A DNA stretch of 64,000 nt from positions 51,026,001-51,090,000 of the forward strand of contig OY740791.1 of the NCBI GenBank assembly GCA_963514005.1, read 5' to 3'. Source of the stretch: Raja brachyura (lineage: Eukaryota). The position numbers were made by a program. Below, one piece after another: positions 24,001-31,000 of this stretch; the first letter of the stretch is position 1, and each line of letters starts with the position of its first letter.

Positions 24001-27000
24001 TCTCAGAGCGACCAGAGATATGATCCAGAAAACAATTGCATCACCGTAAGGCAAGAGATTGAAAAAGGTTTCCCCACTCCACACATATAACAAACCAGAT
24101 AGTATGCAACAAAAAAGCTTTTCACTGTACTTCTGTGCTAATGACAATAAACCAAATTAAACTAAAATTAAACAAAACTAAATTTAGTTTATTACTAGAC
24201 TAAGTGGGACCCATTGGGGCCCTGTCACATGGGAGGCCTGGTCCCCCAACGGAACCTGTTCCCCAATACAATATTCCACCACTCACCCATTCCCCCAATG
24301 CAATCAGTCCCCCAACACAATATTGCACCACTCACACATAGCCCTCAACTGCGCAGGCGCGGCACATTTCCCCTCATCCCCCAGCACTCTCTCCTTCTCC
24401 TTTTCCGTACCCTCAGTCATGCCCTCCCTCCCTCCATCTCCTCTCCCCTCCCTAACCCCCTCCTATCCCTCTATCCTCACACCTCACCCCCCTATCCCCC
24501 CACTATCCCTCCTGACCTGCCCCACTGCCCTCATCTCCCTCTATTCCCCACTCTGTACCAGCCCCACCCCCTCATCTCCCTCTATTCATTCTCTTCCCCC
24601 ACTCTCCTCACCTCCCCCACTTTTCCCCTCTCCCTCCCTACCCATTTCTCTCCCTCCTCACCTCTCCAGGATCTCTCCCCTTTCCTCCTCTCCTCCCCCA
24701 ATCCCTCCCTTACCTCTACCTCCCTCTCCTTTCCCCCACCATCAGTCACTCCCTCCCTCCCTCCATCCATAAAAAACAACATCAGCAGTTCCTTCCTCCA
24801 CAGGTCATTCATTGTTAGCTGTGGTTTAGATCCCGTTGACTTGACTATTGGACCAGTTTGCATTGTGTGTGTGTGTGTGTCTGTGTGTGTGCATGTCTGT
24901 GAGTTCCTCAAACATTGTGCAAACTGATCACCATCTTGCAACCCGACCCTCGCTCACGCCCTCTGCCCACTCCGTCCTGTCCGACCGCCCGATGCTGCCA
25001 CTCGGCCCATCCCTGACCTGCCCGCCCGCCTGCTGCTGCCGCTCGGCTCAGCTCAACCCGCCCTTCCCACCCACCTACCTGCCTGCCTGCTCGCCGCCGG
25101 GTAGTGGGAGGGGTGGGGAAGGATGGAGTCGGTGTTGGTCATGGTGGGCACCATGAACTTCGATGACCTGGTGTGGAAGACAGGGCTGCCAACATTGGGT
25201 GAGAGTTGGGAGTGAGAAATTGCAAGAGATCAAGCCCGAGGAAGCCTAGCCGAGGTGGTGGGGGGTGGGGGGTGGGGGGGGGGGGGGGGGAATTTCTGTT
25301 CCAATGCTCCCCATTCTCAATTACTTTTACATTGAAGTGATTGAAATCCAAGTGAAGTTTAAATGGCGTCAGAAAAATAAAACCTCCGGAATGGATGATA
25401 TTCATTACGTGGTTGGTTGGACTCAATATCATCACAATTACTCAATTAAACTTTGAATCTTCAGATTTCCTGGTTCAAGCTAAAACTAAAGACAAATAAT
25501 AACCTCCTCACACATTCCCTGCAAGTATCTCTGTCACTGCTTTAAAATATTCCCCTTCTTTGAACAAGCTCTTAAACATCGCATCCGAACCAGTTTCCAT
25601 CTGATTACATTCCTTGAGGATGTTCAACTACGTGTCCAATTAATAAAACAACGAGATTGGGGACATTTCTATTCAACCTGTCAAAGGAATTTGGGGGGGG
25701 GGGGGGGGGGGAGATAAGAAATAGTCAGTAAGGTAAACAGACATAATAGTTGAGTGGCAAATGACAATAGTGCTACCTTCCCAATATTTAATTACGGAAA
25801 TAATGGGTTATTGGGGCTGTATGTTGTAACAGACAGCCTGACACCTTGCATGTCATTTTAATATTACACTTACCCAAACCTCCTGGACATTCTGGATTAA
25901 TAAATTAAGGTTTTGTCAACTAATTAAAATTAGGATAATTACAAATCAATATCATTAGCCAACTCTGAAATACAAAACACTGAGCATTGGGATCCAGACA
26001 TCACGGACAACTGGCCGCAGTTCCCCACTCACACCTGGCAGTGCTCTCTGTCTGAACCAGGGACCATGGAGCGTTTTTGAAAGTGGGGAGGCTGAGCGAT
26101 CACTGACCACTGGCCTTGGGGGTACCTGACCAGGGAGTGGAGCAACTGAGTGGGGGGAGGGTGTGGAAGGGGGGTGGGACTTTTTGAAATGTGATGTGTT
26201 AGAGCATTGTAGAAGTATGATTTCAATGCTTTTTGTTTGAAGTATCATTAAGAGGTAACATTTTAAGGGGTAACATTTTCCACACAAAGGGTGGTGGGTG
26301 TATGGAATAAGCTGCCAGAGGAGGTAATTGAGGCAGGGACTATCCAAACAGTTAAGAAACAGTTAGACTGATACATGGATTAGACAGGTTTGGAGGGATA
26401 TGGACCAAAAGCAGGTAGCATAGCTGGGACATGTTGGCGGGTGTGGGCAGGTTGCGCCAAAGGGCCTGTTTTCACCCTGTATCACTCGATGACTACATTA
26501 TACTTCCATCATGCATGAATGCTTCAAAATCAAGTGGTCGCGTTTTATTGCCACATACTCAAGCATAGAAACATAGAAAATAAGTGCAGGAATAGGCCAT
26601 TTGGCCCTTCGGGCCAGCACTGCCATTCAATATGATCATGGCTGTTCATCTAAAATCAGTACGTTTTTTTCCTGTTTTTTCCCCGTATTCCTTGATTTTG
26701 CTAGCCCTAAGAGCTAAATGTAACTCTCTCTTGAAAACATCCAGTGAATTGGCCTCCACTGCCTTCTGTGGCAGAGAATTCAACAGATTCACAACTCGGC
26801 GTGAAGAAAGTTTGTCCTCATCTCAGTCCTAACTGGCCCACCCTTTATTCTTAAACTGTGACCCCTGATTCTGAACTCCCCCAACATCGGGGACATTTTT
26901 CGTGCAGTTACAGTATGTGAAAATCTAGCAGGCAAGCAGGATGCTTTCTCCAACCACCCCGAGTTGAAGACCACTTTCTTCCACCATTTCTACCTGGTAC

Positions 27001-28000: not shown

Positions 28001-31000
28001 TAGATGTAAAGGGCCTGTCCCACTTTTCCGAGGTACTCACAAATTCACCCAAGTTTTCCCCTTGATTCAAACCCGGAGATGCCAGCCGGTGGTACTCTGG
28101 GGCTATTTTTTTAATTTGTGGACATTTTTCAACATGCTGAAAAAACGTCCCGACCTACCTGATGCCCCGAGTACCTACGCCTGGTATTACGAGCCGCTAC
28201 AAAATATCTGCGGACTCCTACGGCCTCCTACGGACTCGCTACGGACATTCCCCGAGTTTGAATCAAGGGGAAAACTTGGGAGAATTCTTGAGTAATTCAA
28301 GAAAGTGGGACAGGGGATTAAGTTTGTTTGTTGTGAGGTTGTATTTATGTGTCAGTAAAGCTGCAATTAGAATTGCATAACTCCGATCCTGGTTCATGTG
28401 ACAATTAAGAATTCTTGACTCTTAAATGTGAGGAGAAAAGAAGACAAAACATAGCATAGTACAGCACAGGAGCAGGCCCTTCACCAGCCTGGCAAACACG
28501 CGCCAGCCCGGACAACACACACCAGCCCCAGCTCCCTGTCCGCATCTGTCTGGGCCGAACATAATGCCAAGACCAACTCTTATCTGCCTGCGTTTAATCT
28601 AATCTTCCCAATGCCTGCAGATCCATATGCCTATCCAAAAATGTCTTAAGTGCCACTATCATATGTGCCTCAACCACCACACCCAGCAGCGCGATCCAGG
28701 TACTCACCACCCTCTGCCTAAAACAAAATCTGCCCCCAAGCTTCCTTTAAACTTTGCCCCTCTCACCTAAAAGCTATGAACTCTACTATTTGATTTTATT
28801 CCATCCTGGAAAAAAGATTCTAACTGTCTCTCCTATCTATACTTCTATCAGGTGGGGGCGGGGGGTGGGGGGGGGGGGGGGGATTGGGTTTGGGGGAGGG
28901 ATAGGGGGGAGCAACAGAACTGCATTGTGAGCCGACATAGATTTGATGGTCTAAAATGTCTTCCTTCTCTGACATAGTTAACTATGGAAATTCAATCACT
29001 CACTTCCAGACGCAAACATGAATTTTGTTTACAACATTCCCTCTAATTATGTACTCAATCTTCTGATTATTCACTGCACAAAGAGATGTATCCAACCTGC
29101 ATTCTTTGGTAAAGATCTCATATCGACACCCATTAATCTTCAAGTGGAAATAGTGTGTCTTCTGCTATTGTTTTAAACTGGCTATAATTACTTTGAAATG
29201 ATAAAGGATTGAAGGCTGCTCTAACTGGGGTGCTAAAAATGATAAAATAATCCTCAAGGGAACAAAGAGGGGTGTGGTGGGGGTGCTGAGAACAAAGAGG
29301 GAACCGGCAGAGGGGGGTGGTGGGGGAGGGGGGGGTGTGGGGGGCAGTGGTGGCATTGAGATCAAAGAGGGACAAATGGAGGGGGTTGTCAAGAAAGAGG
29401 AGAAGGTGGCAGGCGGAGGGGCAGCCAAGAGCAAGGAGGGATCCAGTGGAATAAGGGGGGGGGGGGGAGGAGGGGTGTGGGGGGAGCACCTAGGACAAGG
29501 TTAGACCTGGATCATCAGGATTCTAATGATTACTTTTGTAACTTTGTCGACGACAGAGACATGGCGACTCTTTGCATTCGTTATGCATTGTAGGCATTAC
29601 TAAAGAATTTCAATGTACCAAGGTAAATGCAACAATAATGTATCATTGAATCATTGAAGGGAAGATTGGTGGTGGAGGCAGATACGACAGGGATATGGAT
29701 CACATGCAGGCAGCTAAGATCAGTTTAACTTGACATCAAGTTCGGCACAAACATTGTGGGCCGAAGGGCCTATGCCTGTGCTGGACTGTTCTCTGTGCAA
29801 TGTTCTAAGATAAAGAAGATGGGGGGGGGGGGGAATGAGATAGTATGAAACTAGAGTTTGACCTTTGAGAGCAAAGTAGGGAAAAACGTCCTCACATAGG
29901 AATAGAAAATGTCTATCAATCGTCCCTTCAAAATAGATTTGGGTCTATTCAAAATCCTGGGTCAATTGGGCATCTCAAGATAAAGATCGGTCAATGTGTC
30001 GGCAAGATGGGATCTGGGTCAAAGGTTGGAAATGAAGTTAAAGTAGCGATTAACTGAGATACAACTGACAGACAGAATAGACTTCAATGTCTCAATAACT
30101 CACACATATTTCTGTGTTCTTTGCAACACCAACAATAACATCAACTTCACATATGACAGCCATAATGCAAGAAACTGTTCAAATGTCACTTCAGGGTAAC
30201 ATTTTCAAACAATGAAGTTGACACTGAGTGACATGGAGGGGGATCAGAAAAGACAGTTGATAGCCAGGTCAAAATGATATGATTCAAGGAGCATTTTTAG
30301 AAAGGAAGGTAGTATTATGAACAGATCAAGACATGGCTTTTCCAGCCTTGGGCTTTGGCAGCTGAAAGTGCAGCCGCTGAAAGTGCAGCCACCGCTAGAA
30401 CCTTGAGGTGGCATGATGGCTCAGCTGTAGAGTTGCTGCCTTACAAGATCAGAGACCCAGGTTCAATCCTTAAGGGCCTGTCCCACCAGCATGTAACTCT
30501 ATGCGATGAACACGATCAAACTAGAAGCGGGGGCCGCGCGGAGGTCGGGTGATCCCCTGTACAGGGCCGTTCCCACCAGCATGCGCCTGCATGCGGCAAG
30601 CGCAACCAAACCGGCAGCAGGGGCCGCGCGGAGGTCGGGTGAGTGGCGCAACGCGGCGCAAATTGAGGCGAACTTGGAGTGAAGTCCAAGGAAAGTTCGC
30701 CAGGATAGAGAGGGGCACACAGAGAGGGGCACCGAGGCACGCACACACACAGGGCCACAAAGCCACACACATAGAGGGTCACGGAGGCACTTACAAATAG
30801 GTTCACGGAGGCACGATGTCGGGGCGGTGTTTAAATGTCGAGGCGACTGCGAGCCGACAAGCCGTTGCCGCACGGAATTTTTGGACATAGTCGGTTTTTC
30901 GGAGCCCCGCGCGGTGTGGGGACGAACTCGGGACGAACTCCGCACAATTCCGCACGTCTCCGGCGATGGAAGTGGGACCGGCCCCGCGACGCCGGACGGC

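What the first reader, a model, noticed from the sequence alone, without database searches (positions are those of the whole stretch)
24195..28004. Non-autonomous Helitron carrying captured first exons
Seen: on the minus strand the block starts A|TC then (TCTG)n and ends with a gggcccc-aat-gggtccc hairpin, 7 nt, and CTAG|T, with no TSD. Established: these are canonical Helitron termini, and Helitrons capture host fragments. Seen inside: a polypyrimidine tract, GC-rich UTR-like pieces (24940-25120, 27450-27720), ALG13-like and TDP2-like 5' exons and a nested hAT-like element. Inference: a chimeric element sampling 5' ends of housekeeping genes in a cartilaginous fish; I do not know whether this family is described.
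Basis: partly seen in the sequence, partly recalled or inferred. Interest (0 to 1): 0.8.

Follow-up and report, generated by a model that had tools for sequence, protein, structure and literature searches.

The report
Orphan TDP2 first exon, not Helitron
The supposed Helitron ends are motifs that turn up by chance, and what is really there is a lone copy of the first exon of the DNA-repair gene TDP2, lying between the two ends of a cut-and-paste transposon in a skate-like genome.

Summary
As Helitron ends they carry no statistical weight. The motif of a hairpin followed by CTRR and T occurs 9 times in the window, against 9.9 +/- 3.1 in simulated sequence. The hairpin folds no better than shuffles. 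The 5' TC is simply the edge of an (AGAC)22.8 microsatellite. Neither terminus recurs in the window, and no Rep/helicase was found.

The TDP2-like exon is real (27158-27012, minus strand). It is 76% identical to Leucoraja erinacea TDP2, with the upstream sequence and the start of intron 1 colinear with related records. No other TDP2 exon lies in the 64 kb.

The ALG13-like exon is unconfirmed. Its last six codons and its GT donor belong to a transposon terminal repeat.

That transposon family has a complete 1.8-kb copy at 7598-9395 with 13-nt terminal inverted repeats (TIRs) and a 7-bp target-site duplication (TSD). Its only other pieces in the window bracket the TDP2 fragment: the 5' end at 25181 and the 3' subterminal part at 27317-27439.

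Best reading (about 0.45): an orphan, neutrally drifting TDP2 5' end carried between TIR-transposon ends. A genuine TDP2 locus, another kind of duplication and a Helitron remain as rivals. Only the whole genome can decide between them.

The parts
24195..24222 (-). Helitron-like 3' motif: imperfect 7-bp hairpin, 7 nt, CTAG. Judged a chance motif.
   Evidence: Read. Unique in the window. Site count 9 against 9.9 +/- 3.1 simulated. Fold z = -0.20.
24242..24339 (.). 49-bp tandem repeat, 2 copies
   Evidence: TRF.
24360..24770 (+). C/T-rich low-complexity tract flanked by 48-nt direct repeats (24391-24438 and 24720-24767, 85%)
24859..24901 (.). (TG)n-type microsatellite
   Evidence: TRF.
25123..25198 (+). 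'ALG13-like' 25-codon ORF. Only codons 1-19 lie outside the transposon repeat. Homology unconfirmed.
   Evidence: Translation. No Pfam, PDB or representative-library support. The TIR begins at 25181.
25181..25226 (+). 5' end (13-nt TIR plus subterminal GTGAGA-type repeats) of a TIR transposon, first part
   Evidence: 25181-25222 is 90% identical to 9395-9354. Motif search found 2 matches against 0.00 expected.
25227..26131 (.). 905-bp stretch that interrupts the transposon 5' end relative to the complete copy. Holds two poly-G runs. Unique in the window.
26132..26176 (+). 5' end of the TIR transposon, second part
   Evidence: 89% identical to 9351-9308.
26266..26493 (.). Dispersed retroposon-like repeat A
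   Evidence: Two long copies, at 10642-10406 and 38653-38427; shorter matches to parts of it at 543-428, 50634-50710, 18454-18396 and 2436-2390.
26561..26906 (.). Dispersed retroposon-like repeat B
   Evidence: Four near-full-length copies in the window at 74-77% identity: 56247-56582, 18208-18551, 49099-48781 and 16234-15916. Two shorter matches to its middle at 42074-42196 and 47288-47174.
26928..27011 (-). Start of TDP2 intron 1 (GTAAGT donor), colinear with the read-through ORFs P0002 and P0010
27012..27158 (-). TDP2 exon 1 copy: 49 codons covering the N-terminus and the UBA-like domain
   Evidence: PDB 6q00 TDP2, E = 0.0012. Leucoraja erinacea TDP2 P0003, 76% identity, E = 9e-14. tblastn E = 1.5e-18.
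27159..27273 (-). TDP2 5'UTR and upstream sequence, with a 19-bp tandem repeat (27179-27228, 2.6 copies) that breaks the upstream frame kept in P0002, P0010 and P0011
27317..27447 (+). 3' subterminal region of the same TIR transposon family, including a 19-bp-arm palindrome (27338-27387). The last 8 nt of the TIR are degenerate and there is no TSD.
   Evidence: Local alignment score 72 up to 27439. BLAST 27387-27423 against 7659-7623: 84%, E = 5e-5. Fold z = -6.58.
27448..27911 (.). GC- and CpG-rich unique flank (CpG o/e 0.62-0.82). No second copy in the window.
27914..28004 (.). (AGAC)22.8 microsatellite, whose outer edge supplies the 'A|TC' 5' end
   Evidence: TRF.

Best explanation
The block is a mosaic, not a Helitron.

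Its only gene-derived part is a DNA-level copy of the 5' end of TDP2, at 26928-27273 on the minus strand. It comprises about 115 bp of upstream/5'UTR sequence, the 49-codon exon 1 and the start of intron 1. This piece lies between the 5' end (25181-25226 plus 26132-26176) and the 3' subterminal region (27317-27447) of one family of non-autonomous TIR (cut-and-paste) transposons. Two retroposon-like repeats and a 905-bp stretch were inserted into the unit later.

Most likely mechanism (inferred): the TDP2 5' end came to lie between two transposon ends and was copied as cargo. This could have happened by mobilisation of two neighbouring insertions as one unit, or by gap-repair filler. This is a Pack-type or transduplication arrangement.

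The copy is an orphan that drifts neutrally. The GC-rich pieces at 24940-25180 and 27448-27720 are the flanks of that unit. The ALG13-like ORF is flank sequence running into the TIR. The hairpin-CTAG and the TC are chance motifs at a retroposon tail and a microsatellite edge.

Shown: the homologies, the colinear order, and the absence of other TDP2 exons.
Inferred: that this is a single element, that capture occurred, and that the exon is non-functional.
For: TDP2 identity:
- (E = 1.5e-18 to L. erinacea TDP2 aa 1-54).
- Read-through ORFs P0002, P0010 and P0011 match the upstream sequence, the exon and the intron colinearly. P0002 matches 27209-26928 at 82%, E = 1.2e-45.

Orphan status:
- tblastn of the 360-aa protein finds only aa 1-54. 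The next best of 15 further hits has E = 0.15 and lies on the other strand. So there is no exon 2-7 in the 27 kb downstream or anywhere in the 64 kb.
- No host-gene domain appears in 120 of 125 ORFs >=90 aa, nor in 300 of 511 ORFs of 45-89 aa.

Neutral drift:
- Amino-acid identity in the exon is no higher than in the translated non-coding flanks. W-P0002: 42/49 against 38/45. W-P0010: 38/49 against 33/45. P0002-P0010: 40/50 against 36/45 (W is the window's copy).
- Two of the window-specific replacements are TGT and TGG where the relatives have Arg, as CpG decay would give.

Transposon:
- The complete copy at 7598-9395 has a 15-nt inverted match at 93% and a 7-bp direct repeat CTTGTAG on both sides (read).
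- The only other matches to its specific ends in the window are 25181-25222 (90%), 26132-26176 (89%) and 27341-27423/27317-27439. These are in the same orientation and in order, spanning about 2.27 kb (25181-27447).
- The interiors of the two copies are unrelated.

Against the Helitron ends.

The model in which two neighbouring TIR insertions and the DNA between them move as one element is described for plants in PMC8903248 (passages read).
Against: - The last 8 nt of the 3' TIR are degenerate (3 of 8 match).
- There is no TSD: TGGAAGA precedes 25181 and GGCTGCC follows 27447. A transposed copy should have one, so a single mobile unit is not shown.
- There are only two family members in the window, and no copy with the same cargo was seen.
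- CpG o/e stays at 0.62-0.82 from 27001 to 28400, past the transposon end, against 0.46 for the whole window. This would fit a genuine promoter island.
- The ORF, the ATG and the GTAAGT donor are intact, and the indels relative to the relatives are in frame.
- The neutrality argument rests on 45-50 codons. The N-terminus of TDP2 may evolve fast anyway.
- P0002, P0010 and P0011 could simply be orthologues from other skates.
Confidence: 0.45

Rival explanations
1. Genuine TDP2 locus. This is the real promoter, 5'UTR and exon 1 of the species' TDP2, with a first intron longer than 27 kb filled with repeats. Two independent insertions of the same TIR family, one in the promoter and one in intron 1, have each lost their inner parts. 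It could be the source state of a Pack-type element.
For: - Intact ATG, 49-codon ORF and consensus GTAAGT donor.
- A CpG-rich domain from 27001 to 28400 (o/e 0.62-0.82, window 0.46) that extends upstream past the transposon piece.
- No TSD linking the two outer transposon ends, as expected if they stem from two events.
- Colinear upstream, exon and intron relatives in other records, as orthologues would give.
Against: - No exon 2-7 in 27 kb downstream, and no other host exon detected in the window.
- The exon is no better conserved than its flanks.
- Six window-specific replacements where P0002 and P0003 agree, and P0011 too over the part it covers; two of the six are shared with P0010.
- CpG o/e is lower than in other islands of the window, which reach 0.95-1.35.
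- The only two extra pieces of the TIR family in 64 kb would have to fall 2.2 kb apart, in order and in the same orientation. That is about 0.02 if placed uniformly (my estimate).
Confidence: 0.22
2. An orphan TDP2 5' fragment placed here without transposon-mediated capture. It would be part of a larger segmental or ectopic-repair duplication that happened to include transposon pieces, or an assembly chimera.
For: - CpG richness continues beyond the transposon end.
- No TSD.
- A 68-nt paralogue of the TDP2 5'UTR piece lies 1.3 kb away at 28481-28548, at 84% identity.
- Homopolymer runs >=10 nt are 10 G/C against 4 A/T. Two lie inside the block, and a G-rich stretch begins 11 nt after the N gap. 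This pattern can mark weak joins in an assembly (interpretation, not tested).
Against: The colinear 5' and 3' ends of one TIR family bracketing the fragment need no further assumption under the capture model. No direct evidence of misassembly could be obtained.
Confidence: 0.2
3. The block 24195-28004 is a non-autonomous Helitron (5' TC, 3' hairpin-CTAG, A|T insertion) that captured first exons of TDP2 and ALG13.
For: - The letters are there and the flanking bases are A and T, with no TSD.
- Helitrons of bats preferentially carry promoters, 5'UTRs, first exons and first-intron starts, e.g. NUBPL in HelibatN3 (PMC4224331, passages read).
- The Helitron superfamily is reported in the whale shark repeat annotation (PMC8455134, passage read).
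Against: - The motif frequency equals chance.
- The hairpin has a central mismatch and z = -0.20.
- The TC is one of 47 such sites and sits at a microsatellite edge.
- Neither terminus has another copy in the window.
- No Rep/helicase.
- ALG13 homology is not reproduced.
- PMC4224331 states that structure-based calls need multiple copies or empty sites to avoid false positives. Neither is available here.
Confidence: 0.07

Closest known systems
Pack-type (transduplicating) non-autonomous TIR transposons: Pack-MULE, Pack-CACTA, Pack-hAT and Pack-PIF of plants. Turmoil-1 of C. elegans is an animal case.
   Same: A host gene fragment lies between the ends of a non-autonomous TIR element whose relative in the same window has different internal DNA. 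The published acquisition model uses two neighbouring insertions plus the DNA between them (PMC8903248, passages).
   Different: The 3' TIR is degenerate and no TSD is present. Only one cargo-bearing copy was seen. The cargo is a promoter-proximal region plus first exon and intron, not internal exons. The host is a cartilaginous fish. The 2008 abstract of PMC2572040 (search listing only) says transduplication of protein-coding genes was then unknown in animals.
HelibatN3 and other Helibat Helitrons of vespertilionid bats carrying gene 5' ends
   Same: [quoted passage not shown]
   Different: There are no validated Helitron termini, no second copy, no empty site and no Rep/helicase partner here. 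A TIR family brackets the cargo instead.
TDP2 (tyrosyl-DNA phosphodiesterase 2) of Leucoraja erinacea (P0003, 360 aa)
   Same: Residues 1-54 (N-terminus plus UBA-like domain, PF14555) align with 27158-27012 at 76% identity. The exon ends at the same residue.
   Different: There is a five-codon in-frame gap and eight replacements. The endonuclease/exonuclease/phosphatase part (PF03372) is absent from the window.
hAT or P-type cut-and-paste transposons
   Same: Short TIRs beginning CAG and a TSD of 7 bp in the complete copy. Subterminal short repeats are also present.
   Different: No transposase was seen, and the superfamily could not be tested. PMC8903248 reports 8 nt for plant hAT TSDs; 7 bp fits less well. 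Assignment from TSD and TIR letters is from recall.

Membership tests
Helitron (canonical) | 5' TC and 3' CTRR, with a short stem-loop a few nt upstream of the 3' end (as stated in PMC4224331) | tested here: inconclusive
   The letters are present. However, such 3' sites occur 9 times in the window against 9.9 +/- 3.1 simulated. The hairpin has z = -0.20. There are 47 candidate A|TC sites.
Helitron (canonical) | Insertion between host A and T without TSD | tested here: inconclusive
   The flanks are A and T with no repeat. No empty site is available. A and T flanks are expected by chance about once in 16 (my estimate).
Helitron (canonical) | [quoted passage not shown] | not testable with these tools
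   Within the window there is no second copy of 24195-24360 or 27720-27911. No eukaryotic genome collection was on hand.
Helitron (canonical) | An autonomous Rep/helicase partner in the genome | tested here: not met
   For this window only. Pfam on 120 of 125 ORFs >=90 aa and 300 of 511 ORFs of 45-89 aa found only reverse transcriptase, RNase H-like and tyrosine recombinase domains. The rest of the genome is untested.
Pack-type TIR transposon (transduplicate) | Two TIRs of one family bounding the unit | tested here: inconclusive
   The 5' TIR is intact at 25181. The 3' subterminal 123 nt align, but the terminal 8 nt match in only 3 positions.
Pack-type TIR transposon (transduplicate) | TSD of the family's length on both sides | tested here: not met
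   The complete copy has a 7-bp CTTGTAG on both sides. In the block, TGGAAGA stands against GGCTGCC.
Pack-type TIR transposon (transduplicate) | Host coding DNA between the TIRs, and no transposase | tested here: met
   The TDP2 exon 1 copy at 27158-27012 lies between the ends. No transposase domain was found.
Pack-type TIR transposon (transduplicate) | Further copies with the same cargo (not a singleton) | not testable with these tools
   Three related ORFs exist in public protein sets. Their flanks could not be read.
TDP2 gene (functional locus) | N-terminal UBA-like exon followed by exons for the endonuclease/exonuclease/phosphatase domain | tested here: not met
   Only aa 1-54 of the 360-aa L. 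erinacea protein match. The next best hit has E = 0.15. Exons beyond the window are untested.
ALG13 (first exon) | Significant similarity to the N-terminus of the Glyco_tran_28_C family / ALG13 | tested here: not met
   Pfam gave 0 families at E<=10. PDB gave 0 hits at E<=10. Of 6 representative-library hits, none is an ALG13. The query is only 25-30 aa, so power is low.

The most novel reading that the evidence does not exclude
A cut-and-paste (TIR) transposon family of a skate has picked up the promoter-proximal region, first exon and intron start of the housekeeping gene TDP2 and moved it as cargo. This would be a vertebrate counterpart of the plant Pack-type elements. The locus may even preserve the intermediate in which two neighbouring insertions fuse into one composite element.
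Probability: 0.3. Interest if true: 0.55.

Novelty: new member of a known kind. Interest (0 to 1): 0.3.

Why it matters
As it stands this is a cautionary case. Helitron 'hallmarks' are so short that a 64-kb window offers about ten by chance, and a microsatellite edge can pass for a 5' TC.

The residue is modestly interesting. DNA-level capture of a gene's 5' end is well documented for bat Helitrons and plant Pack-type elements. By the searches made here, I found no description of it for TIR elements in cartilaginous fishes.

If whole-genome counts showed several TIR-bounded copies of the TDP2 piece, it would be a rare vertebrate example of transduplication, and a source of portable promoters and first exons.

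If the exon proves to be the genuine TDP2 start, the finding is ordinary annotation.

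Tried and rejected
- Large inverted duplication of the two GC-rich arms: only low-complexity matches. Rejected.
- ncRNA genes in the block: Rfam found 0 at gathering score in the whole window, and 5 weak matches (E 0.17-0.68) in 23800-28400. Rejected.
- A possible TDP2 exon 2 at 5950-5900 (E = 2.3). There is no acceptor and similarity is poor on reading. Rejected.
- A second 5' TIR at 27438-27475. Alignment scores were 46-48 against 33 +/- 5 for shuffles, with shuffle maxima of 54-55. 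Not significant; left unexplained.
- Shared interior between the two transposon copies: none, with all z <= 2.9 on short segments.
- Species placement through the DIRS-like ORF. The best hit has 60% identity, and the named hits are L. erinacea at 57% and 47%. Too distant to name the species.
- ALG13 test through the search for homologous proteins: the query was too short. The open frame is only 36 codons between stops.
- Cluster members of P0002 and P0003 could not be listed.
- Not scanned with Pfam: 5 ORFs overlapping the N run, and 211 of the 511 ORFs of 45-89 aa (1-19984 and 57570-63999).
The exon was searched on its own.
The one open collection, genome contigs, holds only bacteria and archaea and was not searched.
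- Paper supplements were not opened.

Full report
**Setting.** The window is eukaryotic and repeat-rich, with one N run (21834-22033, left untouched).

**The observation.** Read on the minus strand, the block starts A|TCTA(TCTG)n at 28004. It ends GGGCCCC-AAT-GGGTCCC, then 7 nt, then CTAG|T at 24198-24194, and the flanks share no repeat. TRF gives (AGAC)22.8 at 27914-28004. The C/T-rich tract (GC skew -0.549), the (TG)n and the two GC-rich pieces are also there.

**Are the termini more than chance? No.**
- I counted sites with a GC-rich hairpin (stem >=6 bp, at most one mismatch, loop 2-7) lying 2-15 nt before CTRR+T. There are 9 on the two strands of the window, against 9.9 +/- 3.1 in 30 first-order Markov simulations. 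For stems >=7 bp the figures are 7 against 6.0 +/- 2.6.
- The stem has a central C.T mismatch. The 41-nt 3' end folds at -4.8 kcal/mol (z = -0.20), and 76 of 200 shuffles fold at least as well.
- A|TC occurs 47 times in 24199-28100. The one chosen is the edge of a microsatellite.
- A self-BLAST of 24101-28200 against the window finds no second copy of 24195-24360 or of 27720-27911. The hairpin motif is unique.
- No Rep/helicase domain was found. Pfam on 120 of 125 ORFs >=90 aa gave only reverse transcriptase, RNase H-like and tyrosine recombinase domains of a DIRS-like element, plus three sub-threshold chance hits (5 ORFs over the N run were dropped). Pfam on 300 of 511 ORFs of 45-89 aa gave one more reverse-transcriptase fragment.
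- The left boundary sits just past the (TAAAC)n-like tail of a retroposon family with two further copies. The right boundary abuts a MITE with 66-nt TIRs at 28014-28314.
- Thomas et al. (PMC4224331, passages read) state that Helitron features are limited to TC, a stem-loop and CTRR. They also state that calls made from structure need multiple copies or empty sites to avoid false positives. Neither could be obtained here.

**The TDP2 piece is real.**
- 27158-27012 (minus) encodes 49 residues from an ATG to a GTAAGT donor.
- It matches the UBA domain of TDP2 in PDB entry 6q00 (E = 0.0012). It matches L. erinacea TDP2 (P0003, 360 aa, PF14555 plus PF03372) at 76% over its whole length (E = 9e-14; tblastn E = 1.5e-18).
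- Three unnamed ORFs (P0002, P0010, P0011) read from the upstream sequence through the exon. P0002 and P0010 continue into the intron; P0011 breaks off inside the exon. They match the window colinearly over at least 27273-26928. P0002 matches at 82%, E = 1.2e-45. The homology is therefore at the DNA level, not that of a processed copy.
- In the window a 19-bp tandem repeat (2.6 copies) breaks the upstream frame that the three relatives keep.

**Is it the working gene?**

Evidence against:
- The full protein finds nothing else in the window. The 15 further tblastn hits have E >= 0.15, and the one at an exon-2 position does not stand up on reading. Any intron 1 would therefore exceed 27 kb. No other host exon was detected.
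- The exon is no better conserved than the translated non-coding flanks: 42/49 against 38/45, 38/49 against 33/45 and 40/50 against 36/45 in the three pairs. That gives a rate ratio of about 0.8-1.0.
- The window copy carries six replacements where P0002 and P0003 agree (and P0011 too, over the part it covers); two of the six are shared with P0010. Two of them are TGT and TGG in place of Arg codons.

Evidence for:
- The frame and the donor are intact.
- CpG o/e is 0.62-0.82 from 27001 to 28400, against 0.46 for the window, although other islands in the window reach 0.95-1.35.

I judge an orphan copy more likely than the genuine locus. The window alone cannot settle it.

**The ALG13-like exon is not confirmed.**
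- The 25-codon ORF (25123-25198) has no Pfam match at E<=10 and no PDB match at E<=10.
- It gets six hits in 1.84 billion representatives. All are long repetitive proteins, three carrying Pfam domains of bacterial families, and none is an ALG13.
- The query is short, so this is weak negative evidence. The resemblance itself is a matter of recall.
- More telling, from 25181 onward (codon 20 to the GT 'donor') the sequence belongs to a transposon end.

**The transposon family.**
- 25181-25222 and 26132-26176 are contiguous at 9395-9308 on the other strand, at 90% and 89% identity.
- That copy is complete. It spans 7598-9395, has termini CAGGG[A/C]TGCCAAC (15-nt inverted match at 93%), and has the 7-bp direct repeat CTTGTAG on both sides (read). 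Its middle is filled with other dispersed repeats.
- Its specific ends match only one other place in the window, namely the block. The 5' end matches as above. The 3' subterminal region matches 27317-27439 (local score 72; BLAST 84%, E = 5e-5). The matches are in the same orientation and in order, with the unit spanning about 2.27 kb (25181-27447).
- The interiors of the two copies are unrelated.
- Between the two ends in the block lie a 905-bp interruption, two retroposon-like repeats (26266-26493 and 26561-26906, each with several copies) and the TDP2 piece.
The two GC-rich 'UTR-like' pieces are its outer flanks.
- Weaknesses: the last 8 nt of the 3' TIR match in only 3 positions, and there is no TSD (TGGAAGA against GGCTGCC).

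**Mechanism.** The arrangement is what the Pack-type model predicts: a host segment between two ends of a non-autonomous TIR family. It would be acquired when two neighbouring insertions and the DNA between them act as one element (PMC8903248, passages read). Gap-repair filler is an alternative route; that idea is from my own knowledge.

The missing TSD means one of three things. The unit may never have moved, in which case this is the source locus, i.e. the genuine TDP2. Its 3' end may have been damaged. Or the whole region may have been duplicated by other means. I put these at about 0.45 (captured orphan), 0.22 (genuine locus) and 0.20 (other duplication or assembly chimera), with the Helitron at 0.07.

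**Known relatives and novelty.**
- The Helitron superfamily is listed in the whale shark annotation (PMC8455134, passage). Elephant shark is described as poor in DNA transposons (PMC6817897 and PMC5381603, passages).
- My searches for Helitrons or transduplication in cartilaginous fishes turned up no description of such an element. The second of these was loosely framed. Supplements were closed.
- A TIR-borne TDP2 5' end would be a new member of a known kind. As the evidence stands, interest is low to moderate.

**Unchecked.** Copy numbers and empty sites in the genome, the flanks of P0002, P0010 and P0011, the cluster members, the Atlas, and 211 short ORFs at the window's two ends.

Noticed in passing
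window 7598-9395 (minus): Complete 1.8-kb non-autonomous TIR transposon with termini CAGGG[A/C]TGCCAAC and a 7-bp TSD CTTGTAG at 7591-7597 and 9396-9402. Its interior is largely other dispersed repeats. Superfamily not determined.
   Followed up: yes
window 32779-37396 (+): DIRS-like retroelement. It has a 452-aa ORF (33188-34543) with relatives in L. erinacea at 57% identity, RVT_1 (34868-35449, E = 1.9e-15), an RNase H-like part (35671-36054) and a tyrosine recombinase (36401-37396, E = 7.6e-7).
   Followed up: partly
window 28014-28314: MITE-like element with 66-nt terminal inverted repeats (85% complementary). It lies directly beside the microsatellite that supplied the supposed Helitron 5' end.
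   Followed up: partly
window 25254-25294, 25693-25711, 28850-28889, 29310-29338, 29455-29485, 31579-31610, 22044-22069, 17421-17455, 63453-63486: Excess of long G or C homopolymer and G-rich runs: 10 runs >=10 nt of G/C against 4 of A/T. One G-rich stretch begins 11 nt after the N gap, and several sit where a repeat copy breaks off. This could be a property of the genome or a sign of weak assembly joins.
   Followed up: no
window 27338-27387: Strong palindrome (19-bp arms, -23.8 kcal/mol for the 101-nt stretch, z = -6.58) inside the 3' subterminal region of the TIR element, about 180 nt upstream of the TDP2 ATG.
   Followed up: partly
window 28481-28548: A 68-nt paralogue (84%) of the TDP2 5'UTR segment 27181-27248, including a related 19-bp tandem repeat. 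It is embedded in a dispersed repeat whose other copy (10420-10000) lacks the expansion. The 5'UTR piece may itself derive from that repeat family.
   Followed up: partly
window 16400-17700: Very GC-rich stretch (up to 0.75 GC, CpG o/e about 0.8) open in several frames. It encodes proline-rich tandem repeats, seen as repeated matches in the tblastn output.
   Followed up: no
window 3600-4500, 15300-15900, 30300-31300, 57900-60100, 63200-63900: Further CpG-island-like segments (GC >=0.5, CpG o/e 0.65-1.35) of unknown nature. No Pfam domain in the ORFs scanned there.
   Followed up: no
window 23980-24185, 19540-19730, 13850-14040: Three copies of a retroposon-like 3' end finishing in a (TAAAC)n-type tail. 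One copy ends a few bases before the supposed Helitron 3' end.
   Followed up: partly
window 48031-48216 (+): Isolated reverse-transcriptase fragment (RVT_1, E = 1e-4).
   Followed up: no
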